A stretch of DNA of 64,000 nt from IMG/VR virus record IMGVR_UViG_3300019458_000001, one strand, 5' to 3'. Both the position numbers and the translations under genes were made by a program. Shown here in pieces: positions 10,952 through 51,702 of the stretch. Origin of the DNA: a virus. The notes beneath the pieces are model-generated. The model did not search any database. It saw only the letters and a list, made by a program, of their open reading frames with translations, and was not told the DNA's origin. Position 1 is the stretch's first letter; every line of letters begins with the position of its first letter.

Positions 10952-11178
10952 CTTGGATTCGACCGGTGCTACGATGGCCGCCGCTCAAGGGTTGAAGTGG
11001 GTCGCAGACACGCCTGTCCAGCGACCCCGGTTCGCATCGCTCTCGCATAGTCTCTGGAGACAGGAGGTGTCAGATACCCGACGACGATTCCATTTTCTCT
11101 GATGTCAAGGACGAGCCCGAAGGCTCGCAGCCAAGCGGAATCATCCGCGCGTCCTCGTCTTCCCTCGGCTCCGCCGAG

Positions 11179-12036: not shown

Positions 12037-13451
12037 CGAAGACCCTTACACGAAGGAGAAAGCGCATGCCCGTGACGAAGGACCCGAAGGCCCCGCCCCG
12101 CCAGGCGGAGCCCGAGGTCGATCAGATCGTCGAAAAGAACCAGGCGCTGGCGGCGGCCTGGGAGCAGATGGGGATCTTCAAGAAGCTCCCCGTCACGAAG
12201 GACGTCCTCATCAAGATGGCGAACCTCGAGGGGATGCCCCTTTCGGGCGTCGACGTCATCGAGACGCAGCAGGGATTCCGGCTCTACGTGAACAATGAGG
12301 GCGCGAAATTCAATCGCGAGAAGTTTCTCTCGCAGCAGGGCCGCGAGCTCTCGGGGCGCGTCGTCGACATCATCGACAAGCTGCCGGGCGCCGTCGGAGA
12401 CGCGACGCTCGACAAGCAGCAGGGCCGTCTCTACTTCCGGATCACGACCAGGATCAAGAGCGCCGAGTACGTGAAGATCGTCGACGCCGCCTGCGCCGGC
12501 AAGATGTCGGCCGCAGACGCCAAGATCCTCCTCGATGACGACGAGAAGAGGAACACGTACCTGACGTACAGCGGGTTCTCGTACGCGTCGGAGAAGTTCC
12601 AGCAGAACCGGACGCCCGAGCACATCATCAAGAAGGGCATCACGCAGTGCCACCGGCGTGCGGATCTCGAGATCTCCAAGCAGTGCGTCCTGCCGGCAGA
12701 CGAGGAGCCGTCCGACGCCAACTTCCTCACGAACGCGGAGGAACTGCTCAAGCAGGCGGGGGCCGGCCAGCCCGCGGCGCTCGCGCCCGTCAAGTCCGAG
12801 CCCGTCCTGCCCCAGCCGAGCAAGGTGGACGCCGCGCCCGCAGCCGCGCCGTCCCAGACGCCCAGCGCGGCGCCTGGCTCTGGAGGAGAGGGGAAGACAG
12901 CGGAAGATCTGACGGCGAAGATCACGGCGCTCAACAGCGTCTTCGAGAAGGCCGGCGTCAAGAAGTTCGACCGGCAGAAGTGGATGACCGAGCACGGGTT
13001 CCCGTTCAGCAAGAAGGAGCTGACGCTGGAGCTCCTCGACAAGGCGATCAAGGTGGCGACGGAGCAGTTCACGCCGTCGGCCGCCCAGCCCGCCAAGCAG
13101 GAGCCCCCGAAGCAGGCCGAGAAGGCCGCGGAGGATCCCGAGCGCATCAAGCACCTCGCCAAGATCTTCGCCACGCGCGAGAAGGCAGGATTCGGAGACG
13201 AGGAGCTCCTCCGTGCGTGGGTCAAGGAGAACTGCGGCAAGGGGCTCTCTGAGATGTCCGCCAAAGAGATGGAGCCCGTGGTCGCGCGCGTGGTCGAGCT
13301 CACGGAGTTCCTGGGCAACCACACGAAGTGGGGGTTCAACTCGGTCGCCGAGATCGTGGCGTACATCCAGGACTCCAGCGGCAAGAGCGTCCACAGGATG
13401 ACGCCGGCCGAGCTGAAGAAGCTCGGGGACGCCTTGACGGAGATGATGTAG
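12033..13451 (+). CDS. hypothetical protein. Possible single-strand annealing/recombination partner of the nuclease, by position only.
   Basis: ATGA overlap start. 472 aa with a Pro/Ala-rich linker. Sits directly after the helicase and Cas4-like nuclease. Ends in TAG. Confidence 0.55.
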   Translation: MTKTLTRRRKRMPVTKDPKAPPRQAEPEVDQIVEKNQALAAAWEQMGIFKKLPVTKDVLIKMANLEGMPLSGVDVIETQQGFRLYVNNEGAKFNREKFLSQQGRELSGRVVDIIDKLPGAVGDATLDKQQGRLYFRITTRIKSAEYVKIVDAACAGKMSAADAKILLDDDEKRNTYLTYSGFSYASEKFQQNRTPEHIIKKGITQCHRRADLEISKQCVLPADEEPSDANFLTNAEELLKQAGAGQPAALAPVKSEPVLPQPSKVDAAPAAAPSQTPSAAPGSGGEGKTAEDLTAKITALNSVFEKAGVKKFDRQKWMTEHGFPFSKKELTLELLDKAIKVATEQFTPSAAQPAKQEPPKQAEKAAEDPERIKHLAKIFATREKAGFGDEELLRAWVKENCGKGLSEMSAKEMEPVVARVVELTEFLGNHTKWGFNSVAEIVAYIQDSSGKSVHRMTPAELKKLGDALTEMM

Positions 13452-14035: not shown

Positions 14036-14294
14036 ACGTCTTGCACAAGATCTGCAAGGCCTATATATGCTTAGAAAGGCCTCGTAGACGCATTATAACT
14101 CATAATCTAAGAACGTCTTGCAGATTAGCAGAGAGGTATGTAATAAATCACCGACCTACTACCACACCTTGGCGCCTCGGTTACTCACCCCAAAAGCCTC
14201 ATAGGTCTGCAAAAACGCTGCAAGCGCTGCAAGACAGCAAGGTGCTGCCACACAGTTACTTACGCGCGCGGTGCCTGCTAGATTGCACTGCAAG
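14036..14294. promoter_or_regulatory. AT-rich intergenic region with a TGCAAG/CTTGCA repeat cluster (operator, iteron or promoter candidates)
   Basis: CTTGCA at 14040 and 14117 (within the 10-nt direct repeat ACGTCTTGCA at 14036 and 14113). TGCAAG at 14053, 14219, 14228 and 14289. Tandem GCTGCAAG at 14217 and 14226. TATATAT and CATAAT-like stretches. Confidence 0.5.
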
Positions 14295-17675: not shown

Positions 17676-18341
17676 ATGCCTTTCACCGCGTCTCTCGGAG
17701 ACGACCGAAAGGGAAACGGCCTCGCGGCCTGCGCCGGGCTTCTCGCAAGCGGCCTCTGGGGATCCATGCCCTGGGAAGCCCGGCGTCAGCAGTGCCGGAT
17801 GTGTATGCTCCGCTTCATGAAACAGCCGTCCTGCAGTCTGGACTTCCTGACGATCGGAGACACCGGCCGGCTCAAGCTCGAGATCGCGGAGTGCCTCGCC
17901 TGGGTCGCCGAGTGCACGCCATCGTGGACGTCCTTCAACGGATGTGTCCACGAAGTCGAGCTCGTCTATGCCCGACTGGGCCACGACGCGGTTCCGCCGC
18001 CCTCCCAGGTCCTCGAGGACTTCATGAAGGTGTGCGCCGGAGCCGCCAGCGATGAGGTTCTCTGGAAGGATTGGAACATCTACGTCGAACAGTTCGAGGG
18101 GCGCCCTCAGCGCGCGGAGGTCCCGGTGGCCATGAAGCCCGCCGTCGACGGGATCGTCGACATGCTGACCTCCGCGGCGCGTCTCAACGGGAGAGCGCTC
18201 TTCTTTCTCTATGCGGCGTCCTCCGTGTTCGAGGACGCAGCGACGCATCTCGGGCTGCCGACCCTCAAGCAGACGTTCGGCCACCTGCTTGAAGCCTCGA
18301 GAAAAGCCGTGGCCGCCAACGCTTCCCTGGAGGTTTCGTAG
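17676..18341 (+). CDS. hypothetical protein (221 aa)
   Basis: Track ORF with coding-like composition. Ends in TAG. Confidence 0.55.
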   Translation: MPFTASLGDDRKGNGLAACAGLLASGLWGSMPWEARRQQCRMCMLRFMKQPSCSLDFLTIGDTGRLKLEIAECLAWVAECTPSWTSFNGCVHEVELVYARLGHDAVPPPSQVLEDFMKVCAGAASDEVLWKDWNIYVEQFEGRPQRAEVPVAMKPAVDGIVDMLTSAARLNGRALFFLYAASSVFEDAATHLGLPTLKQTFGHLLEASRKAVAANASLEVS

Positions 18342-30915: not shown

Positions 30916-30947
30916 GGGGAGGGACACTCGTGTCCCTCCCCTTTTTT
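30916..30947 (+). terminator. rho-independent terminator
   Basis: GGGGAGGGACA-CTCG-TGTCCCTCCCC (11-bp stem) followed by TTTTTT. Confidence 0.75.
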
Positions 30948-30971
30948 GCCCGCGCGTGATAGCATGGCGCC

Positions 30972-31418
30972 ATGCCCATTCCCGAGGAGCGCCTCAAGAT
31001 CCGGCTCGGGATCCGGAAAGACCAGGCCGCGGCTAAGGACGTCATCATGGCGAAGCTCCGCGACAAGATCCAGAAGGGCTACCTCCCGAAGGACGGCAGG
31101 GAGCTCGCGGACGTCCTGAAGCTGGTCCACGACTACGGAAAGTCGGTCGGTCACGTCGAGGAATGCCAGGAAATCCTGGAGAAACTGTCGGAGGGAACGC
31201 CCATGACGATGGAGAAGTTCGGCGTCGAGTGCAAAGGGGACCACAAGCCCACGCTGCCCCACATGGAGAAGAAGGCATCCGGCGACATCGTCTGCAGGCA
31301 CTGCGGGGCGAAGTTCGCCGACCTCAACATCGCTGAGAAGGTCTCCGTGAAGGACGAAGTCAAGCAGGGCAAGAAGGACGCCAAGGACTCGATCGAAAAG
31401 ATGCTCAACATCGACTAG
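30972..31418 (+). CDS. hypothetical protein (148 aa)
   Basis: Track ORF downstream of the terminator. Confidence 0.55.
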   Translation: MPIPEERLKIRLGIRKDQAAAKDVIMAKLRDKIQKGYLPKDGRELADVLKLVHDYGKSVGHVEECQEILEKLSEGTPMTMEKFGVECKGDHKPTLPHMEKKASGDIVCRHCGAKFADLNIAEKVSVKDEVKQGKKDAKDSIEKMLNID

Positions 31419-31426
31419 GAGGCGCC

Positions 31427-31693
31427 GTGCCCGAAACCAAGACCGACGTCCTCGATGAATTCATCATCAAGAACAAGGTGCCAGACGCAGGCACCGACCA
31501 GCCGAACCGGAAGCTCCTCGGCCTCTTCGTCGAGTTCCTGAAGGAGCGCGGCCAGTACGTAGAAAAAGGCGACCTCAAGAAGGAGCTCACGGAGAAGTTC
31601 TCGATCAAGGACCGGAACAAGGTTCCGATCGAGGTGACGAAGTGCCTGGTGTGCGGGCACCAGGAGTACGAAGTGAAGGAGTCCGAGGGCTAA
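31427..31693 (+). CDS. hypothetical protein (88 aa)
   Basis: Track ORF. CLVCGH motif. Confidence 0.5.
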   Translation: MPETKTDVLDEFIIKNKVPDAGTDQPNRKLLGLFVEFLKERGQYVEKGDLKKELTEKFSIKDRNKVPIEVTKCLVCGHQEYEVKESEG

Positions 31694-32067
31694 GCTCTCG
31701 CCAGCTCCTCTGCGTTCAGGACCTGCTTCCCGAGGGCGCGCTTGAGCTTCCGCATCGCGGTGTACTCGATCTGGGCGACCCGCGTTTTCGAGTAGCCGGT
31801 CCCGCGCGAGACGGCGTCCATCGAGAACGGCGGCTGCGAGACGAGCCCGCAGATCGCGTTGTGGAAGCTCTCGCCGTCCCCGTCCTCGCCCACCTTGATC
31901 TTGAATGGGCAGTCCGCGCACCGATTCCAGGACTTCTTGATCTCCATCGCCATCATCAGGTTCTTGAAGTCCTGCTTCTCCTCCATCGCCGAGAGAAGCG
32001 TCTCCGGGGACTTGAAGAACGGGCACTTCGCCTTCCCCGTGCACGGCGTGATGAGCTTGATCGTCAT
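31690..32067 (-). CDS. Cys-rich N-terminal domain fused to a sigma-70 region 4-like HTH (candidate RNAP specificity factor)
   Basis: ATG 32067 after GAGGAGG. N-terminus CTGKAKC..CADC. C-terminus FSMDAVSRGTGYSKTRVAQIEYTAMRKLKRAL aligns by eye with sigma70 region 4.2 (..TRERIRQIEAKALRKLR). Confidence 0.6.
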   Translation of the reverse strand: MTIKLITPCTGKAKCPFFKSPETLLSAMEEKQDFKNLMMAMEIKKSWNRCADCPFKIKVGEDGDGESFHNAICGLVSQPPFSMDAVSRGTGYSKTRVAQIEYTAMRKLKRALGKQVLNAEELARA

Positions 32068-32077
32068 GCGAACCTCC

Positions 32078-35000
32078 TCATGACGCAGCCGGAGCGGCGA
32101 CCGGTTCAGCGATCGTCGCCCCGTACGCGATTCCAGGGATCGGATTCCATCCTTTGACATCGCTCTTCCACCCCTCTGCCACGGCCTTCTGAAGCGTGTC
32201 CCGCAGGCGCCGGAACGAGAGCGCCGCCATCCAATCCTTCCGGCCCATCGGAACGACGTCCACACCCTTGAGAACGGGCCGGAAGCGGACCGGATTCGGA
32301 TTGGCGATGACGTTCGCCCGCCCCATCGCGCGAAGCCGCGAGATGTCGTCGTCCGTCAGGATCTTCTCGACGCCGCCGAGCTCGTCGATCTCCTCCATGA
32401 GCATCGCGTTTCTGGCCAGTTCGAGCGGAACCGGGGCGGCCTGTCTGCGGTTCTCCATGCGGACGACATTGAGCGGGACGACATCGCCTTCTACGAGGTC
32501 TGTCCTCGCCCCACTGTCGGTCACGAGCGCCGTGTCGGTCGCGGACCGGACCACCGTCTCGATGTGCTTCTTGCGGACGGCCCCCCGGAAGATGTCATAG
32601 ATCTGATCGACCATGTACCGGCGCGTGAAGTCGACGCCCTTGGTATCGAGGAGGTCTCGCGGATCGACCAGACCCTCCGACATCGGGTCGCCAGGATTCA
32701 CGACCTTGCCAGGCTTCACCGTCGGCTCGAACGGCGTGAAGTAGGCCTTCCCTGAGACCCGCACGTCGTAGCCGCCCGGCGCCTTCCCGACGCTCTCGAC
32801 GACGCCGTGTTCGGGCGCGACAAGCGCCTTCTGCTTCATGTCGTGCGGCATCTCGAGGAGCGTCTTCAACTTCTCGAAGCCCGTCATCTGGCCGGCGCCG
32901 CGCCCGGTGATGCCCTGGACGTGCTTCGACCCGAGGATAAGCTGGGTCATCGGCTCGCCAATCGCCTGCGCCGCGGTGATCCCGATGAAGGCTCCTGGCT
33001 TCGGAACGCGTCCGCGCTCGTCGAGCCCGTACGAAAGCGAGTACGTTCCGTAGGGGTGACTCGAAGTAAGCGGGCTTCCAAGTTCGACTGACTTCTTCCC
33101 TGCCGCCCGGAACCGCTCACGCATCTGCGCATCGAAGAGGTCGCCCCTCTTGGCGATCGCCCCGTAATCCCGCATCACGTACCGCCCGACCGACTCCCGG
33201 TCGTCGACCGAGAACTCGAGTCCCCGCTCGTCGTCCGGGGTCGCCCCAGGAACGATCCTGTTCTCGATCGACGTCTGCACCATGGACTTCGTGAGCGCTC
33301 CGGGTTCCGCCGTCGAGATCTTCGTCTCGACGCTTCCGCGCCTGGATCCGAGGACCGACACCCAGTAGTCGGCGGGCGTCATGCCTTGTGCGTAGCCCGT
33401 GCGTACTGGATGCGTGTGGATCCTTCCGCGGATGTCTTCCACCAGAACAGGCGCCGCGATCATCTGCGTCGCCTGAGCGATGTCGCCTCGGCCGCCCGAG
33501 GCGATCATCTGCCCGAGCGAACTCCCGCGCTCCCTCATCGTATTCTCGGACAGGCTCTTCAGCTCGTCGTACGCCTTCGAGTAAATTTCGACGATCTTCT
33601 GGTCCAGGCGCTTCTTGTCCGAGATGGACTTCACGGCCTCTGCCGCCTGTGCGTCGTACTTTTTCATCACGGCGGAGACCTCGCCCTTTGGCAGCTTGAG
33701 GTCGTCGAGACGAACCGAGAGGCCGGACAGATATGCGTACTCGTTCCCGATGTCCTTGAGCGCGTCCGCGACTGGCGCCAGAACCCTCGGGTTCTCGCGC
33801 GCCACGGACTCCAGAATCTTGGTCATCGCCCCTTTGTCGAGAATGAGATCCGGCCGGCGCAGCTTCTCCGGCAGCGCCCTGTTCACAAGAAGCCGGCCCA
33901 CGGTCGTCTCGGCTCCGGCAATTCGGATGAGATCTGTTTCCGTGATCTTCCCGTCGTAGAAGTCCTCGAGCGCTTCGAGGTCGGACGGATATGCCTTCCC
34001 TGTCTTCCTGCCCACGCTCGTGAGGCGGAAGAGCCCGACCTGGGACTCATGGCGCGGCGTAACGAGAATCTTCTCGGACGTCGACATCGGGTTCGCCGAC
34101 GGCATCATCTCGAAGGACTCCCGGACCGCCTCCGGGGTCACGGGGACGTGGACCCCGACCGTGTCCCCGTCGAAATCAGCGCCGAGCCCGACCGTGACGA
34201 GTTGGTTCAGGTGGATCGACTTCCCGGGGAAGAGCTTCGGCTTGAGGCCGATGATCCCGTGCTTGTGGAGGGTCGGCGCGCGATTCAGGATCACGGGCCT
34301 CTCGCTCATCGCCCGCGCCAGAGCGCCCCTGGCGTTCTCGGACCGCATCTTGATCAGCTCCTCAGCCTCGAGCGGAGGGACCCCCTGTTCGGCGAGTTTC
34401 TGGACGATGAACGGCTTGAAGACGATCCAGGCCATGTCCTCCGGGATCCCAACCTCGTCCATGCCAAGCGTCGGATTCCCGACGATCGCGGCGCGGCCTG
34501 AGAGTTCCTGCTGCTTCCGGAGAACGCGGGACTGGAAGTAGCTTCCCTTCGGGTGCTCGCCCGTCACGACATCGACGATGCCGCGGTAGTGCTCGGAGGA
34601 GATTGGGTCGCCAACGCCGGCCACCGCCTTCACCGCCTGGTAGAGATCGGCTCGCTGCTCGCGGAGCGACTCATCCGGGATCTGGCCCGACAGATCCTTG
34701 ATCTGGTTCTTGAGGGCCACGAGGTCGCGATAGAGATAGTTCACGTCGGAGACGTTCAGCGTTCCGTCCGGAAGCGGGTAGACGGGGCGGTAGATCGGGG
34801 GGAGAACCGGGATCTTGCTCACGAAGAGGTCTTCCGGGCGGATCGCGTTGTCCTTCATGTTGATCAGGAACCTGAGGGCCCGGTTGATCGCGTTGAGATC
34901 GCTTCCCTTCGAGCGCTTCGCCTGGTCCTTTAGGAGGCGGATCGCCCTCGGGACGTCCACCGACTCGAGCATCCGGCGTACCGCGGCGGGGCCCGTCATA

Positions 35001-38000
35001 CCGCCCTTTGAGGCGTCGAGCTTCTTCCCGAAAGCGTCGACGTGCGTCCGCTCCTCGACGATGTCGTCGTACTCCCGCTGGGAGAGGTCGAGCACGCCCC
35101 TGATCGCCGGCTCGAAGATCGGGTTCGGGACCTCGTACGGGAGGTCGATGTGCGTCCACTTCCGGCCGAGGAGTCCGCCCGTGAGCTTCTCGTCGAAGAG
35201 GCCGCCGTCCTCCGGCTTGAGATTCTTCCCAAGAAGCATCCTGGAGTTCGAGACCGCGCCTGCGCTCATCGCCTCTGTCTGGTCGTCCGTGAGGGGCTTG
35301 AGCTGGAACTGCGTCCCGCGTCGCTCGACGTTGATGCCGGCGCCCTTGAGGAGCGTCACGAACTTGTCGAAAGCGAACGTCGGCTGCGGCGGAGGGAGCG
35401 GCTCGTTCATCTGCAGGGCACGCCAGAACTCGTCGCTTTTCCCCGCCTTCACGGTCGCCATATCACGGATGTTGTGGAGCGCCCCGTGGGAAAGAAGCGC
35501 CGAGATCTCCATGTGCCCGATCGTCTGGGCGCCCTCGCCGGACTTCGCAGGCCGGAGATCCGCCGTGTAGGAGCCGCTCGGATCCCGTGCGTTGAACTTC
35601 TCCTTCGCGGCGTGCTCGAGCTTCATGATGAACTGGCGGCCCGTCGTGACCTTCCCGAGAGACCGTCCGCTCACGGGGTCGACCAATTCCTCGGCATCCT
35701 CGAGACCGTGCTTCTTCAGGTCCTGCTCGATCCTGTCCCTGAGGTCACCGGGCTCGAAGTTGTCCACGACGTAGGGCTTGCCCGTCTTCTTCGCGATCTT
35801 CCCGGCGAGCGCCTCGTAGATCTGAGACGGGTTCATGCGCGTGGGCAGTCCAAGGGGGTTGAGGAGGATCTCGACGGACTCCCCGTCCTTGGTGTGCGGC
35901 ATCTCGTGGTCTGGAATGATTCTCGTCACCAGACCCTTCGCGGCATATCGGCTGACCACCTTGTCCCCGACCTGAAGCGGCTCGGAGGTCTTCAGGAAGA
36001 TCTTCGCGCTCCCGTCCGGGAACTTCTGGACGTGCGTCACCTCTCCGTCGAACGGCTCCTCCCACACGAGCGCGGCGTCGGAGTATGGCCGGACGAGATT
36101 CCTGGAGATTTTCCCGAGGACGACATCCTCCGGCGTGATGTTCTTCTTGGAGAGATGCACCGATACGGGGTCGCCCGTCTTCAGCCTCTGCCCGCGCTGA
36201 ACGACGCCGTCCTCGTCGAGTTTTCCGAGCTGCGCCGCAGTAAAGCGGTTCGGAAGATACGCCGCGTACTTCTCCCGGCCAGCCAGCCCGTCCTTCGACG
36301 GACGATGGTCGATTTTGTACATGTGCTCGGAGGTCAGCTTCTTCGCCGCGCCCTCCGAGAGCACGATCCCGTCCTCGTAGTTCCATCCGCGCGCGGGGAG
36401 CCACGCAACTTTCAGGTTCTTTCCGATGGAGAGGACTCCGTCACGCGTGAAGTTCGAGTCGGCCAGGAGGTCGCCCTTCTTCACCCTGTCGCCCGCGGTC
36501 ACTTTCGGGACGCTGGTGACGAAGCTGCGGGCGTTGAGCGGAAAGTCCTTGTAGATCTGGACCGTGTGGACCTTGCCGTCATCCCCGCGGATCTCGACCG
36601 TCCTTTCCTTCACGCCCTCGACGATGCCGTCCACGGGCGACGTCACACCGGCCAGGTGCCCGAGGAGCTTCTCGAACGTCTTCTCCGGCAGCTTCTCGGG
36701 GGTGGCCGCGGACTGCACCAGCGGGGCCTCGGGCTCCCTGACGGCGACGGCCTGATCGTACATCTTCGCCGCCATGAGCCCGCGCCCGCCGTGCATGGCG
36801 TTGATGAACGGCACCAGGTTCGTCGAGAAGTCGAAGAGGTCACTCGCGCGTTCTACGACAAGATCGACCTCGGAAGGCCCGACGGTGCGGACCTTCCCGC
36901 GGTGCATGATGCGGATTGAGGCGTCCACGGGCACGAGCCTCCCCGAGGCGTCCTTGTGGTATTCGTTCGGGAACGCCACGCGCTTGTCGTAGATCTCGGG
37001 ATGAGCAAGCTCGATGCGCGTCTGGGCCTTCGGGTCGAAGAAGGGGACGAGGATCACCCCTTCCCCATTTTTTGCCCCAACGGAGACGTGCATGACCGCG
37101 CCGATGTCTCCGCCCTCCGGGGTGTGCATCGGGTCGATCGCCCCGAACATCGACGGATCAACGTCGCGATCCTCCTTCGTGACGGCGCGCTTGTTCCCGA
37201 TCGACCCCTCGCCGAAGACCGTGGTCTTCGTGAATCCCGTCACGAAGCTGATCGGATTCGACTGCGTTGGGTAGTTCGAGAGGGCCGACCGGTTGAAGAA
37301 GCTCGTCACGATGTCGGAGAGCTTGTCGGGCTGGACGATTTCCCGGACAGTCGACTTGTCGCGCATCCGCGCCTTGATCCGGTTCTGGATCGCGCGGGAG
37401 CTCTTCTCGATCCTTTCCGTCAGGATCTCGTCGAAGGTCCGGAACTCCTTGAAGCGGGAACTGTCGATGTCGGGCTCCTCGTCGCCGGACAGGACGCGTC
37501 CCATGTTCCTGAGCGCATCGACCACGAGACCCTTGTCGAAGGTCTTGTACTCCTTGCCGTACTTCTGCCGGACGACGTCGGAGGCCATAGGAAGCGCGCC
37601 GAGTATCTCGCGGACGCGCGCCGAATTCTCTCCAAGGTTCTGCGGGTTGGCCTTCTCGGAAGTCACGATCGTCCGGAGCTTCGCCGTATCGCGCTTCAGA
37701 TCGGCGTCGGCCTTGATCCGGTCGAGGCCGTCAAGGCCGATCGCGTCGACGATTTCGTCGTCCGAGACGTCCATCGCCTTCAGGTACGAGTAGAGCGGGA
37801 TGGTCTTGCCATCGAGCGAGACCGTCCAGCGGCGCTCCGCAGGCGCATAGTCGATGGAATGGTTCCACTTCGAGAACCCGATCGGCAGCTTGAAGTGGGC
37901 TGAGGTCTCCTCTGGGCGGCTCTTCACGTAGACGCCAGGCTTCAGGCGAAGCTGGTTGGCGACCTGGAATTCCTCGCCGCCGACGATGAACGAGAGCCTG

Positions 38001-38281
38001 GGCGTCAATTTCGGGATCTCCATGACGCGGAGCTTCTTCGCCCGGTCGATCTCCTTGCCTTGGGCGTCGATCAGGGAGATGTCCGCGTACACAGGAACAG
38101 CCCAGCTCCGCCCGTTGAGCTTGGCGTCGAGCTGGCTTCCGAGATCGTTCGGATCAAGCGCGTCTTCCGTCCAGACGCGGTTGACGTTCAGGACCTTCGG
38201 CCCAGAGACCGTGAGCGCGGAGGAGACCGTGCCGGACAGCCTCTCCTTCAGTTTTTCGTAGAGCTCGCCATGGTCGATCAT
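32078..38281 (-). CDS. single-polypeptide multisubunit-type RNA polymerase (RpoB-like N-terminal half fused to RpoC-like C-terminal half)
   Basis: Beta motifs: DVDPSMFGAIDPMHTPEGGDIG, NAMHGGRGLMAAKMYDQAV, GWNYEDGIVLSE, GDKVVSRYAAKGLV..LNPLGLPTRMNPSQ, IMKLEHAAKEKFNAR..GHMEISAL. Beta-prime motifs: IPVLPPIYRP, SDVNYLYRDL, LSGRAAIV, ILNRAPTLHKHGI, GADFDGD (34163-34180). One uninterrupted 2067-aa ORF. Confidence 0.9.
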   Translation of the reverse strand: MIDHGELYEKLKERLSGTVSSALTVSGPKVLNVNRVWTEDALDPNDLGSQLDAKLNGRSWAVPVYADISLIDAQGKEIDRAKKLRVMEIPKLTPRLSFIVGGEEFQVANQLRLKPGVYVKSRPEETSAHFKLPIGFSKWNHSIDYAPAERRWTVSLDGKTIPLYSYLKAMDVSDDEIVDAIGLDGLDRIKADADLKRDTAKLRTIVTSEKANPQNLGENSARVREILGALPMASDVVRQKYGKEYKTFDKGLVVDALRNMGRVLSGDEEPDIDSSRFKEFRTFDEILTERIEKSSRAIQNRIKARMRDKSTVREIVQPDKLSDIVTSFFNRSALSNYPTQSNPISFVTGFTKTTVFGEGSIGNKRAVTKEDRDVDPSMFGAIDPMHTPEGGDIGAVMHVSVGAKNGEGVILVPFFDPKAQTRIELAHPEIYDKRVAFPNEYHKDASGRLVPVDASIRIMHRGKVRTVGPSEVDLVVERASDLFDFSTNLVPFINAMHGGRGLMAAKMYDQAVAVREPEAPLVQSAATPEKLPEKTFEKLLGHLAGVTSPVDGIVEGVKERTVEIRGDDGKVHTVQIYKDFPLNARSFVTSVPKVTAGDRVKKGDLLADSNFTRDGVLSIGKNLKVAWLPARGWNYEDGIVLSEGAAKKLTSEHMYKIDHRPSKDGLAGREKYAAYLPNRFTAAQLGKLDEDGVVQRGQRLKTGDPVSVHLSKKNITPEDVVLGKISRNLVRPYSDAALVWEEPFDGEVTHVQKFPDGSAKIFLKTSEPLQVGDKVVSRYAAKGLVTRIIPDHEMPHTKDGESVEILLNPLGLPTRMNPSQIYEALAGKIAKKTGKPYVVDNFEPGDLRDRIEQDLKKHGLEDAEELVDPVSGRSLGKVTTGRQFIMKLEHAAKEKFNARDPSGSYTADLRPAKSGEGAQTIGHMEISALLSHGALHNIRDMATVKAGKSDEFWRALQMNEPLPPPQPTFAFDKFVTLLKGAGINVERRGTQFQLKPLTDDQTEAMSAGAVSNSRMLLGKNLKPEDGGLFDEKLTGGLLGRKWTHIDLPYEVPNPIFEPAIRGVLDLSQREYDDIVEERTHVDAFGKKLDASKGGMTGPAAVRRMLESVDVPRAIRLLKDQAKRSKGSDLNAINRALRFLINMKDNAIRPEDLFVSKIPVLPPIYRPVYPLPDGTLNVSDVNYLYRDLVALKNQIKDLSGQIPDESLREQRADLYQAVKAVAGVGDPISSEHYRGIVDVVTGEHPKGSYFQSRVLRKQQELSGRAAIVGNPTLGMDEVGIPEDMAWIVFKPFIVQKLAEQGVPPLEAEELIKMRSENARGALARAMSERPVILNRAPTLHKHGIIGLKPKLFPGKSIHLNQLVTVGLGADFDGDTVGVHVPVTPEAVRESFEMMPSANPMSTSEKILVTPRHESQVGLFRLTSVGRKTGKAYPSDLEALEDFYDGKITETDLIRIAGAETTVGRLLVNRALPEKLRRPDLILDKGAMTKILESVARENPRVLAPVADALKDIGNEYAYLSGLSVRLDDLKLPKGEVSAVMKKYDAQAAEAVKSISDKKRLDQKIVEIYSKAYDELKSLSENTMRERGSSLGQMIASGGRGDIAQATQMIAAPVLVEDIRGRIHTHPVRTGYAQGMTPADYWVSVLGSRRGSVETKISTAEPGALTKSMVQTSIENRIVPGATPDDERGLEFSVDDRESVGRYVMRDYGAIAKRGDLFDAQMRERFRAAGKKSVELGSPLTSSHPYGTYSLSYGLDERGRVPKPGAFIGITAAQAIGEPMTQLILGSKHVQGITGRGAGQMTGFEKLKTLLEMPHDMKQKALVAPEHGVVESVGKAPGGYDVRVSGKAYFTPFEPTVKPGKVVNPGDPMSEGLVDPRDLLDTKGVDFTRRYMVDQIYDIFRGAVRKKHIETVVRSATDTALVTDSGARTDLVEGDVVPLNVVRMENRRQAAPVPLELARNAMLMEEIDELGGVEKILTDDDISRLRAMGRANVIANPNPVRFRPVLKGVDVVPMGRKDWMAALSFRRLRDTLQKAVAEGWKSDVKGWNPIPGIAYGATIAEPVAAPAAS

Positions 38282-41004
38282 CGCACTGAGCTTGGGGTGG
38301 GGGCCTTGCCTGCGTTCCGGTTAGGCGGCTTCTGCTGCGGATTCGGCCTCGAATCGACGCCCTGCTGCTCCATCCACTTCGACATCACGATCGAGTGGAG
38401 CTGCGGGTTCTCGAGCTGAAGCCTCATGAGCGCCGAGTCCCGATCCGCGGGCTGCATCTGGGAAAGCGTCGCCATGAACTGGCCGGCCCATGCGTCCGGG
38501 TTTGACATCTGCTTGCCGTCGGTGCCGGGCTTGTTCGGCTCGTTCTTGAGCACCCCTCCGGGCGTCGACTGGCCTCCGCCGGGCTTCTGCTGGGCGAGCG
38601 AGTTCATCAGGGCCTGGGCCTCCGCGGGCGTGAAACCCATCGCGGTGTACTCGGTCATGATGTCGCGCTGCATCTTGGCCATCTCGACCTGGGCCTTGGC
38701 CTGGTACTTCGCCTGGATCATCATCGCCTCTCCCTCGGCCTCCGCCTGGGCCTTCATCTGGGCGACAGTGATCTTCGCGCGCTTGTCGACCTCGCCCTGG
38801 ATCTGCTCGAACTCCTTGGCCATCGAGTGGCCGAGCTCGCTGACGAACGTCTCGTCGGAGACCTTTCCGTTCATGTTCGCCTGCATGAGCAGGCTCTTCT
38901 GCTGGACATCGTCGACCCATTTGAGGCGGGTCATCGAAACGTCAACGGGCTTGAGCTTCGTGGCCTTCGAGACCTTGTCGATCACGAACCGCAGAAGCTG
39001 CTTGAGCCCGCGGATGTGGTTCAGGAAGAAGTTCTCGACCATCCGGAACGTGACGGAGGACCCGCTCCAGGACATCCCGCCCATGAGGAATTCGCGCGGG
39101 ACCTGGAGGCCGATGATCATCGTCTCCTGGAGGAACCGGATCTCGTCCATCATCGTCAGGGCGCGCGCGTCGCCGCCGATCTGCTGGAACCCTGTCGGGA
39201 TCGGGAAGACGGCGATGTGGTTCGGGTCCCGGCGCCACCGGCGGACCGCGTTCTCGATCTCCTGGCGCCACTTGGCGAGGTTCAGATGGCTTGCCGGGTC
39301 GAGATTCGCCTGCGGGAGCGGGTAGAGCATCCACATCGGGACGATGTGCTGTTGAGCGATGACCTCGCGGCTCTTGAGGAAGATCTGGTAGATGTAACGG
39401 CTCTTGAGCAGCGGGACGATGAGCGGGATCCCCCATCCGTTGTCGAAATAGCTCATCGACGGCCGCTTGATGTGGATGATGTTCGTCGGCTCGAGCTCGA
39501 CGCGGGCGCCCTCCTTCGCGGCCATGATGAAGCTCATCGGCGTCTCTTCGAGGACGCGCCGGCGCCCCGCCCAGATCTGGCGTTTGAGCTGGTTTGGAAG
39601 GTTGTAGTAGTAGGTCGAGTTCCCAGAAATCGGATTGTGTTCGATGTCGATCTGCGCCGGGTCCCATCGGATGATGTTCATGCCCGCGGTGGTCTTCGTC
39701 ATCGGCTTGTCGACGACGACCATCGGGAGGGGCTCGTCCGGAGCGCACGTCGCGCACTTCATGTAGAACTTGAAATCCTTGGGGTTGAACTGGAACTTCG
39801 AGCTCTTGATGGGCTTCTGCTTACGACAGTGCGGACAGACAAGCATCCGGATGAACGGAACGTAGAAGCTGCCTATGTAGTTCCCGTAGCAGTTTCCGGT
39901 AAGGACGCCGTTTTCGATGACGAACGTGTGCGTCTGTTCCTCGACGCAACAGAAGGCTTCGTCAACGATGCCCGTCTCGCGGACATCGACAACGCGAACC
40001 TTCTGCCCGTAGTTCGTCTCCTTGAAGTGCTCCTCGAACCGCTCGCGGTGATGATCGAGGAGGAAGTCTTCAGGCCTTAGATATTGCCTATAGAGCGACA
40101 GGAAGCACTGAGAAGACCCCGACACGTAAGACGAACGTCCGGAGGGATGCTCGCGAACAACACCAGCGATCATGCCGATGCGTGGAAGCTGGACTTCGAT
40201 CGCCCTGAGCGTCGCTTCGGATTTTTGGGTCAGGACGGCATATCCGGCAACGTCAACGCTTCCGTCGGCAGCCAGGAATCCGCAGACGAACCCGTACCAG
40301 TAGCTCGCGCTGCGTTCGTTTTCCGGCAGATTCTTGTAATGCGGCGGCAGGCCGTGCTGGTAGATGACGCCAAGCCTGGCTTCGTACGGCTTCGACCCGA
40401 CGCCCTCGAAGTATTTCAGCATCCCCTTGTCTTTGGCGCCGCAGAAGATCGCCCTGGCCTGCTTGCCATCGTTATATAGCGTGCCATCACCGAACACGAA
40501 GCCGTGGCGAACGCCTTCGTAGAACTCGTCGTTCTGTTCTGGGCGCGCAGCGACGCTCCTGAGAAGCGTGAGGCCAGCGATGTCTTCCGTCGGCCTCTTG
40601 ACGACATTCCCGCTCGACGTGATGATCGGCCATATATGATCCTTGGTGGCGAGAATGGTTCGGCCGTCGCTCAGCTCCACCTCCATGAACTCCTGGCGAC
40701 CATAACACTTGAACGTGGCCGGGCGGTAGACGCCATCCTGGGAGAGAACTTCGACGGTCTTCCCGGACAGGTCCCGAAGCCTGAAGACACCGTTCTTGGT
40801 AACCGCCCGCACATCGCCATGCAGGCAGTTGTAGTCTAGGCCGGCCTCCTCGAGCTTCGTCCGGATCGCCAGATCCTCCTCGAGGACCTTCTTCCAGCGA
40901 GACTTCAGGTCGTCGTCCTTGTCCTCGTAAACAAGGTCTGTGATGGGAAACTGGGCCAGCTTGTAAAGCGTCGCGGAGATGATCTCGTCCGAGAACGCGT
41001 ACAT
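38278..41004 (-). CDS. portal-like protein interrupted by an intein
   Basis: 908-aa ORF, or 596 aa after intein removal. Gln/Ala/Lys/Glu-rich C-terminal helix typical of portal barrels. Located in the structural block. ATGA-coupled to the RNAP gene. The portal assignment is by resemblance only. Confidence 0.55.
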   Translation of the reverse strand: MYAFSDEIISATLYKLAQFPITDLVYEDKDDDLKSRWKKVLEEDLAIRTKLEEAGLDYNCLHGDVRAVTKNGVFRLRDLSGKTVEVLSQDGVYRPATFKCYGRQEFMEVELSDGRTILATKDHIWPIITSSGNVVKRPTEDIAGLTLLRSVAARPEQNDEFYEGVRHGFVFGDGTLYNDGKQARAIFCGAKDKGMLKYFEGVGSKPYEARLGVIYQHGLPPHYKNLPENERSASYWYGFVCGFLAADGSVDVAGYAVLTQKSEATLRAIEVQLPRIGMIAGVVREHPSGRSSYVSGSSQCFLSLYRQYLRPEDFLLDHHRERFEEHFKETNYGQKVRVVDVRETGIVDEAFCCVEEQTHTFVIENGVLTGNCYGNYIGSFYVPFIRMLVCPHCRKQKPIKSSKFQFNPKDFKFYMKCATCAPDEPLPMVVVDKPMTKTTAGMNIIRWDPAQIDIEHNPISGNSTYYYNLPNQLKRQIWAGRRRVLEETPMSFIMAAKEGARVELEPTNIIHIKRPSMSYFDNGWGIPLIVPLLKSRYIYQIFLKSREVIAQQHIVPMWMLYPLPQANLDPASHLNLAKWRQEIENAVRRWRRDPNHIAVFPIPTGFQQIGGDARALTMMDEIRFLQETMIIGLQVPREFLMGGMSWSGSSVTFRMVENFFLNHIRGLKQLLRFVIDKVSKATKLKPVDVSMTRLKWVDDVQQKSLLMQANMNGKVSDETFVSELGHSMAKEFEQIQGEVDKRAKITVAQMKAQAEAEGEAMMIQAKYQAKAQVEMAKMQRDIMTEYTAMGFTPAEAQALMNSLAQQKPGGGQSTPGGVLKNEPNKPGTDGKQMSNPDAWAGQFMATLSQMQPADRDSALMRLQLENPQLHSIVMSKWMEQQGVDSRPNPQQKPPNRNAGKAPTPSSVR
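39892..40827 (-). mobile_element. intein with LAGLIDADG homing-endonuclease domain (312 aa) in the portal-like gene
   Basis: Block A CLHGDVRAV (Cys at residue 60). Block B TKDH. LAGLIDADG motifs GFVFGDGT and GFLAADGSV. C-terminal ..THTFVIENGVLTGN followed by the +1 Cys (residue 372). Confidence 0.8.
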
Positions 41005-41084
41005 CTGGCAGTACTTGAAGAGATCCTTGATCCTCGGCGGGAGGAAGAGAGATGCCAGATCGAAGAACGGTTATCTCTTGCCGC

Positions 41085-41114
41085 GCAGCCCTCTCTCGTT
41101 AAAGAGAGGGCTGC
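41085..41114. other. perfect 12-bp stem / 6-nt loop hairpin between the HNH gene and the portal-like gene
   Basis: GCAGCCCTCTCT-CGTTAA-AGAGAGGGCTGC. No U-tract on either strand. Confidence 0.5.
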
Positions 41115-41247
41115 GTACTCGGCGATGGATAGCGCAGCCCGACCTTGAAGCCGGTATCAGCGGCTCGCGGATCAGCAAGTGAGTCAGCCACAGGCTAATC
41201 CTCGCGGTCGAGCTGGCTGTCCATCGCTTGGCTTGACCTCGTCTTCT

Positions 41248-42078
41248 TCATGCGATGTACACCCGCCCGTTGACGATCCGCCAGATCGTGGATTGCGTTA
41301 CGCCGTACTTCCTCGCGAGCTCATTCTGACTGGCGTTCCCAGATGAGTAGCGACGTCGGATGCCGGCGACTTGCCTGAGTGTGAACTTCGCTTTAGGGTT
41401 CTCCTCGCCGCGCAAGCTGCGGCCAGTAAACTGGATAAAAGTCGAACGGCCTTTCGCGATCATATCATTCGTATTGTCGCGCATCGTCCCGAGTTTCAGG
41501 TGACTCGGACGCACACACGCCGGAGCGTCGCACATGTGCAGAATGCACATCCCGTTCGGAATCTCGCCGGATGTAAGCGCGAACGCGACGCGGTGGGCGA
41601 GCAGCAACTTTCTCTTCGGCATACGCACCGTGAACTGCCCGTAGCCAACGTTGTTCTTAGCTCCGGACCAAAGCCAACAACCGTCGCCCTTAACAACCTT
41701 CGCCCAAAACCTATAGCTCCAGTCTGCTGACGCCGCAATCCGGTGTCCAGATGTGCGCCATGTTGTTTTTGCTGGCGGCGATTTCTTCTGGTCAGACCAC
41801 CAGTGCTTGAGATTGTCTGACTGCGTTCCTAGGAAAAGATGTTCTCGCCGAACGCATGATTTGTTGCCGCAGCGATGGAGAACATTCAGGTTCGGCGGAA
41901 TGCTTCCACGGAATAGCATCCAGGAGGCTCTATGCGCGCCGATCAATCGTCCCTTCATGGAGAAGGAGCCGTATCCGCCGCCTTGCTTGGCTCCAATCCA
42001 CAGCCAGCATCCGTCGGTCTTCTGGACGTGTGACCAGAATCGCTTGATGTGTTTGTCGTCAGCAAGCGAGTCGGCCAT
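41248..42078 (-). CDS. free-standing HNH homing endonuclease with two tandem HNH_3-type modules and a C-terminal HTH
   Basis: Two copies of CWLW.GA...GYG....AHR....G.IP....H.C....C..P.HL..GT...N. C-terminus LRQVAGIRRRY..NELARKYGVTQSTIWRIVNGR. ATG 42078 after GAGGGGAA. Confidence 0.8.
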   Translation of the reverse strand: MADSLADDKHIKRFWSHVQKTDGCWLWIGAKQGGGYGSFSMKGRLIGAHRASWMLFRGSIPPNLNVLHRCGNKSCVRREHLFLGTQSDNLKHWWSDQKKSPPAKTTWRTSGHRIAASADWSYRFWAKVVKGDGCWLWSGAKNNVGYGQFTVRMPKRKLLLAHRVAFALTSGEIPNGMCILHMCDAPACVRPSHLKLGTMRDNTNDMIAKGRSTFIQFTGRSLRGEENPKAKFTLRQVAGIRRRYSSGNASQNELARKYGVTQSTIWRIVNGRVYIA

Positions 42079-51652: not shown

Positions 51653-51689
51653 GGGGAAGGGCGCAGGAATGCGCTCTTCCCCTTTTTTG
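51653..51689. terminator. rho-independent terminator between convergent genes
   Basis: GGGGAAGGGCGC-AGGAAT-GCGCTCTTCCCC (one bulge), then TTTTTTG. Confidence 0.7.
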
Positions 51690-51702
51690 CCTCCACGGAG
51701 GG

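What the first reader, a model, noticed from the sequence alone, without database searches (positions are those of the whole stretch)
31690..32067. Zn-ribbon plus sigma region 4-only protein immediately downstream of the fused RNAP
Seen: a 125-aa ORF with a strong GAGGAGG RBS starts 11 nt after the RNAP stop codon. Its C-terminal 35 residues (SMDAVSRGTGYSKTRVAQIEYTAMRKLKRAL) align by eye with sigma70 region 4.2, the -35-binding HTH. Its N-terminus has two Cys pairs (CTGKAKC..CADC). No region 2 (-10 recognition) segment is visible. Established: jumbo-phage msRNAPs use non-canonical specificity subunits, and T4 uses small region-4-directed factors such as AsiA and MotA. Inference: it is either a dedicated promoter-specificity subunit for the single-chain RNAP, or a sigma appropriator/decoy that acts on the host beta flap.
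Basis: partly seen in the sequence, partly recalled or inferred. Interest (0 to 1): 0.7.

Follow-up and report, generated by a model that had tools for sequence, protein, structure and literature searches.

The report
Sigma-region-4-like partner of phage RNA polymerase
A small conserved phage gene right after a fused bacterial-type RNA polymerase gene encodes only the upstream-promoter (-35) reading helix-turn-helix of a sigma factor plus four invariant cysteines; it is probably an accessory subunit of that polymerase, but this has not been tested.

Summary
The ORF is real: 31690..32067 (-), 125 aa, GAGGAGG RBS, 10 nt between the RNAP stop codon and its ATG. It has 22 metagenomic homologues (52-100% identity). 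In all nine related loci examined it is the last gene after the fused beta-beta' RNAP.

Residues 70-115 are homologous to sigma70 region 4 (end of 4.1 plus the 4.2 HTH). The family profile's nearest outside hits among 1.84 billion proteins are Pfam-verified Sigma70_r4 proteins. hhalign gives 98% against those and 84% against canonical sigma4. NCBIfam hits are all sigma factors. No single direct match to a curated sigma model reaches that model's own cutoff. There is no region 2.

"Zn-ribbon" is not supported. The invariant cysteines are C9, C15, C53 and C73; C50 of "CADC" varies.

New observations: the RNAP keeps an invariant flap-tip-like segment, which is the sigma4 docking site in bacteria. 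It has lost the beta' zinc-binding domain. It lies at the end of the structural-gene block.

Best reading (about 0.45): a flap-docked subunit that contacts upstream DNA. Rivals are a free HTH regulator or a sigma4 mimic acting on host RNAP. No sigma2-like partner was found in about 84 kb. All function is inferred.

The parts
31690..32067 (-). p125: 125-aa ORF, last gene of the minus-strand block
   Evidence: 22 homologues at 52-100% identity. Same position in L001-L009.
32073..32079 (-). Shine-Dalgarno GAGGAGG, overlapping the RNAP stop codon and 5 nt before the ATG
   Evidence: A GGAGG-like or purine-rich SD and a 10-17 nt gap after the RNAP stop are seen in all 9 loci.
31834..32067 (-). N-terminal region (residues 1-78) with invariant C9, C15, C53, C73. 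Presumed metal site (Zn or Fe-S); not a canonical zinc ribbon.
   Evidence: Alignment A1. No Pfam, PHROG or NCBIfam match. AF2 predicts helices at 21-27 and 34-49 at low confidence.
31723..31860 (-). Sigma70 region-4-like domain (residues 70-115): last helix of 4.1 plus the 4.2 HTH
   Evidence: hhalign 98.2%, E 6e-14 against Pfam-verified sigma4 proteins. hhalign 83.7%, P 8e-6 against canonical sigma4. NCBIfam hits are sigma factors only, 21 of 22 members. Profile reaches P0027 at E 1.2e-6, and P0027 is Sigma70_r4 at 2.5e-26.
31738..31791 (-). Putative recognition helix SKTRVAQIEYTAMRKLKR (residues 93-110). Residues 93-102 are invariant in the family.
   Evidence: Aligned to TRERIRQIEAKALRKLRH of RpoD in PDB chain 4g6d_A.
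32078..38281 (-). Single-chain beta-beta' RNA polymerase (2067 aa)
   Evidence: Pfam Rpb2_3/6 and Rpb1_1/2/4/5. PDB beta' at E 1e-89 and beta at 3e-81.
36077..36136 (-). Flap-tip-like segment TPEDVVLGKISRNLVRPYSD (RNAP residues 716-735); candidate docking site for a sigma4 domain
   Evidence: Aligned to Thermus beta TPEERLLRSIFGEKARDVKD. Nearly invariant in 6 RNAPs that are about 71% identical overall.
35132..35224 (-). Site where the beta' zinc-binding domain is missing (around RNAP residues 1036/1037)
   Evidence: B. subtilis beta' 17-54 and 152-233 align to RNAP 999-1036 and 1074-1159. No cysteine in residues 960-1160 of any of 6 RNAPs. Pairwise alignment.
31427..31693 (+). Convergent 88-aa gene whose stop codon overlaps the p125 stop by 4 nt; no intergenic terminator
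   Evidence: The same tail-to-tail overlap occurs in all loci.

Best explanation
p125 is a stand-alone derivative of the sigma70 region 4 domain with a cysteine-stapled N-terminal extension. It is made together with the phage's single-chain beta-beta' RNA polymerase.

Proposed mechanism (inferred, not shown): the sigma4-like domain docks on the conserved flap-tip-like helix of the phage RNAP, as sigma region 4 does on bacterial beta. Its invariant recognition helix (SKTRVAQIEY) contacts duplex DNA upstream of the start site. This would anchor or direct the phage enzyme to its promoters. The Cys4 N-terminal module holds the small domain together. It may also occupy the space left by the deleted beta' zinc-binding domain.

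-10 recognition and DNA melting must come from something else, either host sigma domains 2-3 or an unidentified phage protein.

Shown here: homology to sigma4, absence of sigma2, strict gene linkage, presence of the flap-tip-like segment, loss of the ZBD. Inferred: binding to the RNAP, DNA binding, metal binding.
For: 1. Sigma4 homology.
- The A1 profile's only non-family hits with a recognisable domain among 1.84e9 proteins are P0027, P0029 and P0030 (E 1.2e-6 to 1.6e-4).
- Pfam scores those three as Sigma70_r4 at 2.5e-26, 5e-11 and 1.4e-12.
- hhalign gives 98.2% and 83.7%.
- All 9 NCBIfam families hit are sigma factors, always at region 4.2, for 21 of 22 members.
- The reverse search is specific.

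2. Linkage to the RNAP.
- In all 9 related loci the gene follows the RNAP stop by 10-17 nt with its own SD. It is single-copy and is the last gene.

3. Conservation pattern.
- 21 of 35 positions are invariant in residues 79-113, against 12 of 78 in the N-terminal part.
- Surface positions of both HTH helices are included, which suggests more than one interface.

4. Features of the RNAP.
- It retains a flap-tip-like helix that is nearly invariant in the clade.
- The beta' clamp region aligns from about E. coli residue 140-150 onward.
- It lacks the beta' ZBD.

5. No other sigma-like ORF was found in the 64-kb window, the next 9 kb, a related left-flank contig (about 11 kb beyond the window's left end, with precomputed Pfam and local HMMs only) or +/-10 kb in relatives.
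Against: - No direct test of any interaction was possible.
- The AF2 model of p125 is poor (pLDDT 57). Foldseek hits to sigma chains are not significant (E about 1).
- Direct Pfam Sigma70_r4 scores are below threshold (11.9 bits against 24.1). Region 4.1 helices, which help form the flap-binding pocket in real sigmas, are only partly detectable.
- A sigma4 domain alone cannot melt DNA, and no sigma2-like partner was found.
- No phage-specific promoter motif with a conserved -35-like element was found. The promoters seen look like ordinary sigma70/sigmaA types or extended -10 leaderless types.
- Small stand-alone sigma4-like HTH proteins also occur where no phage RNAP is evident, for example P0029, the L012 64-aa ORF and phrog_11306. 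So the fold alone does not imply RNAP binding.
- A distant phage with a partly fused RNAP (L010) has no homologue nearby.
Confidence: 0.45

Rival explanations
1. p125 is a free-standing HTH transcription regulator, a repressor or activator of phage genes. It uses a sigma4-type HTH but does not bind RNAP. It sits next to the polymerase gene only because both are expressed late.
For: - Small sigma4-like HTH proteins without an adjacent RNAP exist: P0029 (53 aa), the L012 64-aa ORF with the same SKTRVAQIE motif, and phrog_11306 of unknown function.
- The invariant recognition helix fits a conserved DNA operator.
- No RNAP contact has been shown.
Against: - The position immediately after the RNAP stop is conserved in every locus.
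- Almost the whole HTH is invariant, not just the DNA-facing side.
- No repeated operator-like palindrome or motif was found in the intergenic regions inspected.
Confidence: 0.25
2. p125 is a sigma4 mimic that acts on the host RNAP. It occupies the host beta flap or competes with host sigma region 4. This would switch off -35-dependent host and phage-early promoters while leaving extended -10 promoters active. The logic resembles T4 gp33 and AsiA.
For: - Two promoter classes are visible.
  - Three TTGAC-N17-20-TANNNT promoters, all in front of plus-strand early-like genes.
  - -35-less, extended -10, leaderless promoters at 30950 and about 50445, and in L001-L003.
- The gene lies in the late structural block, so timing would fit an early-to-late switch.
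Against: - A decoy needs no conserved DNA-recognition helix, yet SKTRVAQIEY is invariant.
- The obligate linkage is to the phage RNAP, whose own flap-tip-like segment is conserved and differs from the bacterial one.
- The promoter dichotomy rests on very few sites.
- The host is unknown.
Confidence: 0.15
3. The ORF is not a functional gene, and its similarity to sigma is chance.
For: Individual HMM hits to curated sigma models are weak (E 7e-4 to 0.17).
Against: - 22 homologues of conserved length, with 4 invariant cysteines and an invariant 29-residue block.
- Codon-position GC typical of genes in this genome.
- Conserved SD and synteny.
- Specific reciprocal profile results.
Confidence: 0.01

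Closest known systems
Region 4 (4.2 HTH) of sigma70-family sigma factors (RpoD/RpoS/RpoH; Pfam PF04545)
   Same: - Homologous HTH. The SKTRVAQIEYTAMRKLKR helix aligns with TRERIRQIEAKALRKLRH.
- The Q-I-E core and the R-K-L basic tail are retained.
- In bacteria this domain docks on the beta flap-tip helix and reads the -35 element (established knowledge). The phage RNAP keeps a flap-tip-like segment.
   Different: - No regions 1.2, 2 or 3, and only 125 aa.
- It has a Cys4 N-terminal extension.
- Two of the four -35 base-contacting positions recalled for E. coli sigma70 differ (E585->T95, R588->A98; numbering from memory). A different DNA specificity is therefore expected.
- It scores below the Pfam gathering cutoff.
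Split or two-part sigma systems: T4 gp55 (sigma2-like) + gp33 (flap-binding coactivator), and B. subtilis SigO-RsoA two-subunit sigma
   Same: - They show that the sigma2 and sigma4 functions can reside on separate small polypeptides.
- gp33 binds the beta flap in place of sigma4 (Twist et al. 2011, cited in PMC9429907).
- SigO-RsoA is listed as a two-subunit sigma in PMC10141391.
   Different: - gp33 is not a sigma4 homologue and has no -35-reading HTH; p125 has one.
- No gp55- or RsoA-like sigma2 partner was found here.
- Those systems serve the host core enzyme, not a phage-encoded polymerase.
Sigma-like fifth subunits of jumbo-phage non-virion RNAPs (phiKZ gp68, AR9 gp226)
   Same: - They are phage-encoded promoter-specificity subunits for phage multisubunit-type RNAPs.
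- Their C-terminal domains sit where sigma4 sits and touch upstream DNA (PMC7618050, PMC9209446).
   Different: - They are about 460-520 aa, with a sigma2-like domain and a finger.
- AR9 gp226 is reported to have no HTH and to contact DNA without sequence specificity.
- They show no sequence-detectable sigma similarity.
- Their RNAPs are split into four beta/beta' pieces.
- p125 is the reverse case: it has a sequence-detectable sigma4 HTH, no sigma2, and a fused bacterial-like RNAP.
- tblastn of p125 against 50,697 phage records found nothing.
Small stand-alone Sigma70_r4 proteins of phages and mobile elements (phrog_11306; P0029; the L012 64-aa ORF; tandem-sigma4 proteins P0027 and P0030)
   Same: These are the closest sequence relatives of the HTH, sharing the S(K/R)TRVAQIE motif.
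   Different: - They lack the Cys4 N-terminal domain.
- As far as seen, they are not linked to an RNAP gene.
- Their function is unknown.
RNAP-encoding Caudovirales ('mReC', Weinheimer & Aylward 2020, PMC7481178)
   Same: These are uncultured tailed phages that encode bacterial-like beta and beta' subunits. The paper's text does not mention any sigma-like partner.
   Different: - Membership of this window's phage in that clade was not established.
- None of the IMG identifiers of the related loci occur in the held, truncated supplements.

Membership tests
Sigma70-family sigma factor | Region 4.2 helix-turn-helix | tested here: met
   - hhalign 83.7% against canonical sigma4.
- hhalign 98.2% against Pfam-verified sigma4 proteins.
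- NCBIfam hits are sigma factors only, at region 4.2.
- Transitive link via P0027.
Sigma70-family sigma factor | Region 2 (core binding, -10 recognition, melting) | tested here: not met
   hhalign against a sigma2 alignment gives probability 0.2%. There is no Sigma70_r2 hit. The protein has only 125 aa.
Sigma70-family sigma factor | Score above the curated Pfam Sigma70_r4 gathering threshold | tested here: not met
   11.9 bits against 24.1 for this protein. The best family member has E 0.027. The distant member P0024 scores 19 bits.
Sigma70-family sigma factor | Binds core RNAP (flap tip) and directs promoter-specific initiation | not testable with these tools
Only the presence of a flap-tip-like segment in the phage RNAP could be shown.
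Zinc ribbon | Two conserved CxxC-type knuckles | tested here: not met
   The invariant cysteines are C9, C15, C53 and C73, and C50 of CADC varies. No zinc-ribbon family matches.
Two-subunit (split) sigma, e.g. SigO-RsoA or T4 gp55+gp33 | A separate sigma2-like partner polypeptide encoded by the same genome | tested here: inconclusive
   None was found in the 64-kb window (local HMM), in the next 9 kb, in a related left-flank contig or in relatives' flanks. About 108 kb of the 181-kb contig could not be read, and divergent sigma2 domains escape HMMs.
phiKZ gp68 / AR9 gp226 sigma-like subunits | Two-domain protein of about 460-520 aa with a sigma2-like NTD, a finger linker and a CTD at the sigma4 position (HTH-less in AR9 gp226) | tested here: not met
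   p125 has 125 aa, an HTH and no sigma2. No tblastn match was found in 50,697 phage records. Architecture taken from PMC9209446 and PMC7618050.
LuxR/GerE or ECF-type (Sigma70_r4_2) HTH | Profile match to PF00196 or PF08281 | tested here: not met
   Neither family appears among hits up to E = 1-10 for any of the 22 members.
WhiB-like Fe-S proteins | C-Xn-C-X2-C-X5-C motif and a Whib profile match | tested here: not met
   The cysteine spacing is C-X5-C-X37-C-X19-C. No Whib hit was found. The motif itself is recalled from memory.
phrog_11306 (small phage sigma4-like proteins, function unknown) | Profile match | tested here: inconclusive
   E 0.16 for p125, residues 84-111. P0029 matches at 1.9e-8.

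The most novel reading that the evidence does not exclude
p125 is a minimal, metal-stapled sigma4 module and the only dedicated initiation subunit of a single-chain bacterial-type phage RNAP. Its Cys4 N-terminal domain would replace, in trans, the beta' zinc-binding domain that the fused polymerase has lost. The module would sit between the flap tip and the RNA-exit region. Because both genes close the structural-gene block, the pair may be packaged in the virion and injected to start early transcription.
Probability: 0.12. Interest if true: 0.85.

Novelty: new variant of a known kind. Interest (0 to 1): 0.6.

Why it matters
Phage-encoded bacterial-type RNA polymerases are known only from metagenomes, and nothing is known about how they find promoters.

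This family is a concrete, small and expressible candidate partner. It has a recognisable sigma4 HTH but no sigma2. It is always paired with a fused beta-beta' enzyme that keeps the flap tip but has lost the beta' zinc-binding domain.

- If it is a subunit, it would show how far the sigma architecture can be reduced or split.
- It would also give a compact, two-polypeptide bacterial-type transcription system to study or engineer.
- If it is a sigma4 mimic acting on host RNAP, it would be a new class of host-takeover factor built from the sigma fold itself.

Tried and rejected
- tblastn of p125 and megablast of 14 kb against 50,697 phage records found no match.
- AF2 with the 22-sequence alignment gave pLDDT 57.
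  - Foldseek against PDB: 8 of 12 hits were sigma chains, but at E >= 1.
  - Foldseek against BFVD gave nothing interpretable.
- Genome-wide k-mer counts gave only coding repeats and no phage-specific promoter.
- A recurrent 'TATACT' upstream of the 644/908-aa gene looked like a promoter. It lies inside the C-terminal coding sequence of the preceding gene (Y-S/T codons), so it was rejected.
- 'TTTTTGCCTCC' after terminators occurs once per locus. It is a terminator tail, not a promoter motif.
- The identity of the upstream 908-aa protein could not be established. I guessed portal, but Pfam, PHROGs and PDB gave no support.
- The RNAP C-terminus was used to reach distant relatives.
  - L010 is a phage with a beta+beta'N fusion and no p125 nearby.
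  - L011 is cellular.
- Walking along the contig was limited to +9 kb.
- The hairpin of the 52-nt insert was searched in IMG/VR (first with a mistyped pattern) and in metagenomes. Only unrelated hairpins were found.

Full report
**1. The object**

- On the minus strand an ORF runs from ATG 32067 to TAG 31690-31692 and encodes 125 aa (here called p125).
- The stop codon of the preceding 2067-aa ORF (32078..38281) is TGA at 32078-32080.
- GAGGAGG (32073-32079) overlaps that stop codon and lies 5 nt before the ATG.
- Codon-position GC in this frame (GC3 0.85) matches real genes of this 62.5% GC sequence.
- The upstream ORF carries Pfam domains of both beta (Rpb2_3, Rpb2_6) and beta' (Rpb1_1, _2, _4, _5).
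- It matches bacterial beta' and beta chains in the PDB at E about 1e-89 and 3e-81.
- It is therefore a bacterial-type beta-beta' fusion, not a phiKZ-like split enzyme.

**2. A conserved, narrowly distributed family**

- A search of 5.8 billion proteins returned 22 clusters. All are 120-140 aa, 52-100% identical and from metagenomes only.
- An exhaustive profile search of 1.84 billion representatives added only a few members, including a distant 147-aa one (P0024).
- The alignment (A1) shows four invariant cysteines: C9, C15, C53 and C73.
The 'two Cys pairs / Zn-ribbon' description therefore does not hold at family level.
- No zinc-ribbon or other family matches the N-terminal 70 residues.
- Residues 79-113 are strikingly constrained: 21 of 35 positions are invariant, against 12 of 78 before them.

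**3. Is the C-terminus sigma region 4? Yes, as a homologous domain**

No single direct hit to a curated sigma model reaches that model's own cutoff.

- Pfam Sigma70_r4: E 0.17 and 11.9 bits, against a cutoff of 24.1.
- Family profile against the PDB: RpoS, RpoD and SigA sigma4 chains at E about 1.
- NCBIfam sigma-32: E 7e-4.

Taken together, the evidence agrees.

- All nine NCBIfam families hit by any member are sigma factors, always at their region 4.2. 21 of 22 members hit sigma-32.
- Among the non-family hits of the A1 profile in the 1.84-billion library, P0027 (E 1.2e-6), P0029 and P0030 (1.6e-4) are the ones with a recognisable domain. Pfam calls them Sigma70_r4 at 2.5e-26, 5e-11 and 1.4e-12. 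The fourth, P0028, is a long repeat protein and looks spurious.
- P0024 hits Sigma70_r4 at 9.8e-4 and a PHROG sigma factor family.
- hhalign of A1 against a small canonical sigma4 alignment gives 83.7% (P 8e-6) over residues 82-114.
- hhalign against the Pfam-verified stand-alone sigma4 proteins gives 98.2% (E 6e-14) over residues 70-115. This set was itself picked out by the A1 profile, so the test is partly circular.
- In the reverse direction, the canonical sigma4 HMM was searched against all 1708 six-frame ORFs of the window and 11 loci. It found the genuine sigma and then exactly the ten copies of this gene (the window's and nine in related loci), and nothing else.
- Sigma region 2 is absent (hhalign probability 0.2%).
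- GerE/LuxR and ECF-type region 4 models are not hit.

In the alignment to RpoD, S93-K-T-R-V-A-Q-I-E-Y corresponds to T-R-E-R-I-R-Q-I-E-A. By my recollection of E. coli numbering, two of the four -35-contacting residues are changed (E585->T, R588->A) and two are kept or conservatively replaced (R584->K, Q589). A DNA specificity different from TTGACA is therefore likely.

**4. Genomic context**

- In L001 and L002 (Logan), L003-L005 (NCBI metagenome assemblies) and L006-L009 (IMG/VR) the gene always follows the RNAP stop by 10-17 nt.
- It has its own GGAGG-like or purine-rich SD and is single-copy.
- It is the last gene of its strand block.
- Its TAG stop overlaps the stop of a convergent small gene by 4 nt.
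- The window is the first 64 kb of a 181,021-bp contig.
- The minus-strand block that ends with RNAP and p125 contains a 1701-aa virion structural protein, a tail-fibre protein and, just beyond the window, a baseplate J protein.
- The two genes therefore belong, positionally, to the late/structural module. This raises the possibility, by inference only, that the polymerase is a virion enzyme.

**5. Features of the polymerase that bear on a sigma4 partner**

- RNAP residues 716-735 (TPEDVVLGKISRNLVRPYSD) align with the Thermus beta segment TPEERLLRSIFGEKARDVKD. From established knowledge, that segment is the flap-tip helix on which sigma region 4 docks.
- The phage segment is nearly invariant in six RNAPs that are only about 71% identical overall.
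- B. subtilis beta' residues 17-54 and 152-233 align to RNAP 999-1036 and 1074-1159. Only 37 phage residues therefore stand where bacteria have 97.
- There is no cysteine in residues 960-1160 of any of the six RNAPs.
- So the beta' zinc-binding domain, which lies near sigma4 and the RNA exit channel in bacterial holoenzyme, has been lost in this clade. Meanwhile the small partner carries four invariant cysteines. This coincidence is suggestive, not evidence.

**6. Search for a sigma2-like partner and for promoters**

- No Sigma70_r2 or other sigma domain appeared among 68 window ORFs scanned against Pfam.
- None appeared with local sigma2 and sigma4 HMMs on all ORFs of the window and loci.
- None appeared in the 9 kb to the right of the window or in a related left-flank contig.
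- About 108 kb of the contig could not be read.
- Recognisable promoters are of ordinary bacterial type.
  - Three TTGAC-N17-20-TANNNT sites are all intergenic and all in front of plus-strand genes (10948, 19312, 23986, with about 1 expected by chance).
  - -35-less extended -10 promoters lie 6 nt before an ATG (leaderless) at about 30950 and about 50445. They occur at the orthologous site of L001-L003.
- No phage-specific motif with a conserved -35-like element emerged.

**7. Interpretation**

- The most economical reading is that p125 is a sigma4-derived accessory subunit made with the phage polymerase. It would dock on the polymerase's flap tip and touch upstream DNA (confidence about 0.45).
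- The main weakness is that a sigma4 domain cannot open DNA and no sigma2-like function has been identified. The enzyme may borrow host sigma domains or use an unrecognised protein.
- Rival 1 (0.25): a free HTH regulator. Small sigma4-like HTH proteins with the same SKTRVAQIE motif exist without any RNAP next to them.
- Rival 2 (0.15): a sigma4 mimic acting on the host beta flap. This would fit a switch from -35-dependent to -35-independent promoters. It does not explain the invariant recognition helix or the obligate linkage to the phage RNAP.
- The remaining probability, about 0.15, is left unassigned for roles I have not thought of.

**8. Comparison with known systems**

- p125 is not a complete sigma, because region 2 was tested and is absent.
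- It is not a zinc ribbon.
- It is not related to phiKZ gp68 or AR9 gp226. Those are large proteins with a sigma2-like domain, and AR9 gp226 is reported to lack an HTH (PMC9209446, PMC7618050).
- Functionally the nearest precedents are split sigma systems. These are T4 gp55+gp33, where gp33 binds the flap (Twist et al. 2011, cited in PMC9429907), and SigO-RsoA (PMC10141391).
- The phage clade may be related to the RNAP-encoding Caudovirales of Weinheimer & Aylward (PMC7481178). That paper does not mention a sigma-like partner, and membership could not be verified.

**9. Verdict**

- I rate it a new variant of a known kind, with interest 0.6.

Noticed in passing
window 41071-41122 (-), with 41248-42078 (-): The gene upstream of the RNAP really begins near 41195 (VADSLADPRAADTGFKVGLRYPSP...), as its orthologues in L001, L003, L007 and L008 do. 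In the window its frame is broken by a 52-nt insert that the relatives lack. The insert has a perfect 14-bp hairpin (z = -3.1) and an in-frame TAA, and is flanked by matching CCG codons (take-off and landing?). Both flanking coding parts remain conserved. Directly upstream is an HNH endonuclease gene absent from relatives; its ORF starts with a copy of the target gene's first 7 codons (MADSLAD). From memory, this resembles the T4 gene 60 50-nt translational bypass plus mobA cassette. Alternatives are a split gene or reinitiation at ATG 41004. No related copy of the insert was found elsewhere.
   Followed up: partly
window 35132-35224 (-), RNAP residues about 1030-1045: The fused RNAP lacks the beta' zinc-binding domain. 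There is no cysteine within 200 residues of the beta/beta' junction in any of 6 related RNAPs.
   Followed up: yes
window about 39898-40713 (-): An intein with a LAGLIDADG domain lies in the 908-aa ORF upstream of the RNAP (Pfam Intein_splicing and LAGLIDADG_3, both below the Pfam cutoffs). The L001 orthologue has 644 aa and no intein. The host protein's function is unknown.
   Followed up: partly
window 23902-23975 (+) and 24962-25041 (+): The first is a tRNA with anticodon CUA, an amber-suppressor type that ARAGORN calls tRNA-Pyl. The second is a tRNA with an apparent 4-base anticodon/8-nt loop. Both pass the Rfam tRNA threshold. TAG is still used as the stop of about 30% of crudely called genes, including p125 in every locus.
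   Followed up: partly
window 10948-10975, 19312-19341, 23986-24014 (+): Three sigma70/sigmaA-type promoters (TTGAC-N17-20-TANNNT), all intergenic and all upstream of plus-strand genes.
   Followed up: partly
window 19345-19425 (+); L002 about 12265-12360 (-); L003 about 17880-17975 (-): A conserved GC-rich long hairpin (GCGGCCAGGGGAGG...CCTCCCCTGGCCGC) immediately follows a sigma70-like promoter in three phages. It has no Rfam family.
   Followed up: partly
window 30916-30974 (+); also 51660-51700 (+); L001 about 10909-10999, L002 about 9794-9856, L003 about 9550-9600: A strong intrinsic terminator with a conserved tail (TTTTTTGCCTCCACGG in relatives and at 51684) is followed by an extended -10 (TGnTATACT or TAGCAT) 6 nt before the ATG of a conserved 148-aa Cys-containing protein. 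This implies a leaderless mRNA. A similar leaderless promoter lies at about 50445 (-).
   Followed up: partly
window 31690-31693: The stop codons of p125 and of the convergent 88-aa gene overlap by 4 nt (TTAG/CTAA) in every locus. No terminator separates the two converging transcription units.
   Followed up: partly
window 14036-14294 (+): An AT-rich region with repeated TGCAAG/CTTGCA motifs lies upstream of the 1035-aa primase-like gene (PHROG primase hits). It may be an origin or iteron region.
   Followed up: no
P0027, P0030, P0029; L012 9825-10019 (+): These are uncharacterised proteins made of one or two stand-alone Sigma70_r4 domains. They include a 64-aa ORF in a gammaproteobacterial MAG with the same SKTRVAQIE helix.
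   Followed up: partly
L003-L005 (NCBI GCA_0129749xx contigs): The RNAP orthologue is called as several fragments in these assemblies (for example 1180 aa, or 1621 + 267 aa). The cause could be inteins, frameshifts or assembly errors.
   Followed up: no
L010 (ENA 204-kb contig): A distant phage has a beta + beta'-N fusion (1463 aa) and a separate beta'-C (616 aa), with five small ORFs between them. No p125 homologue is nearby.
   Followed up: no
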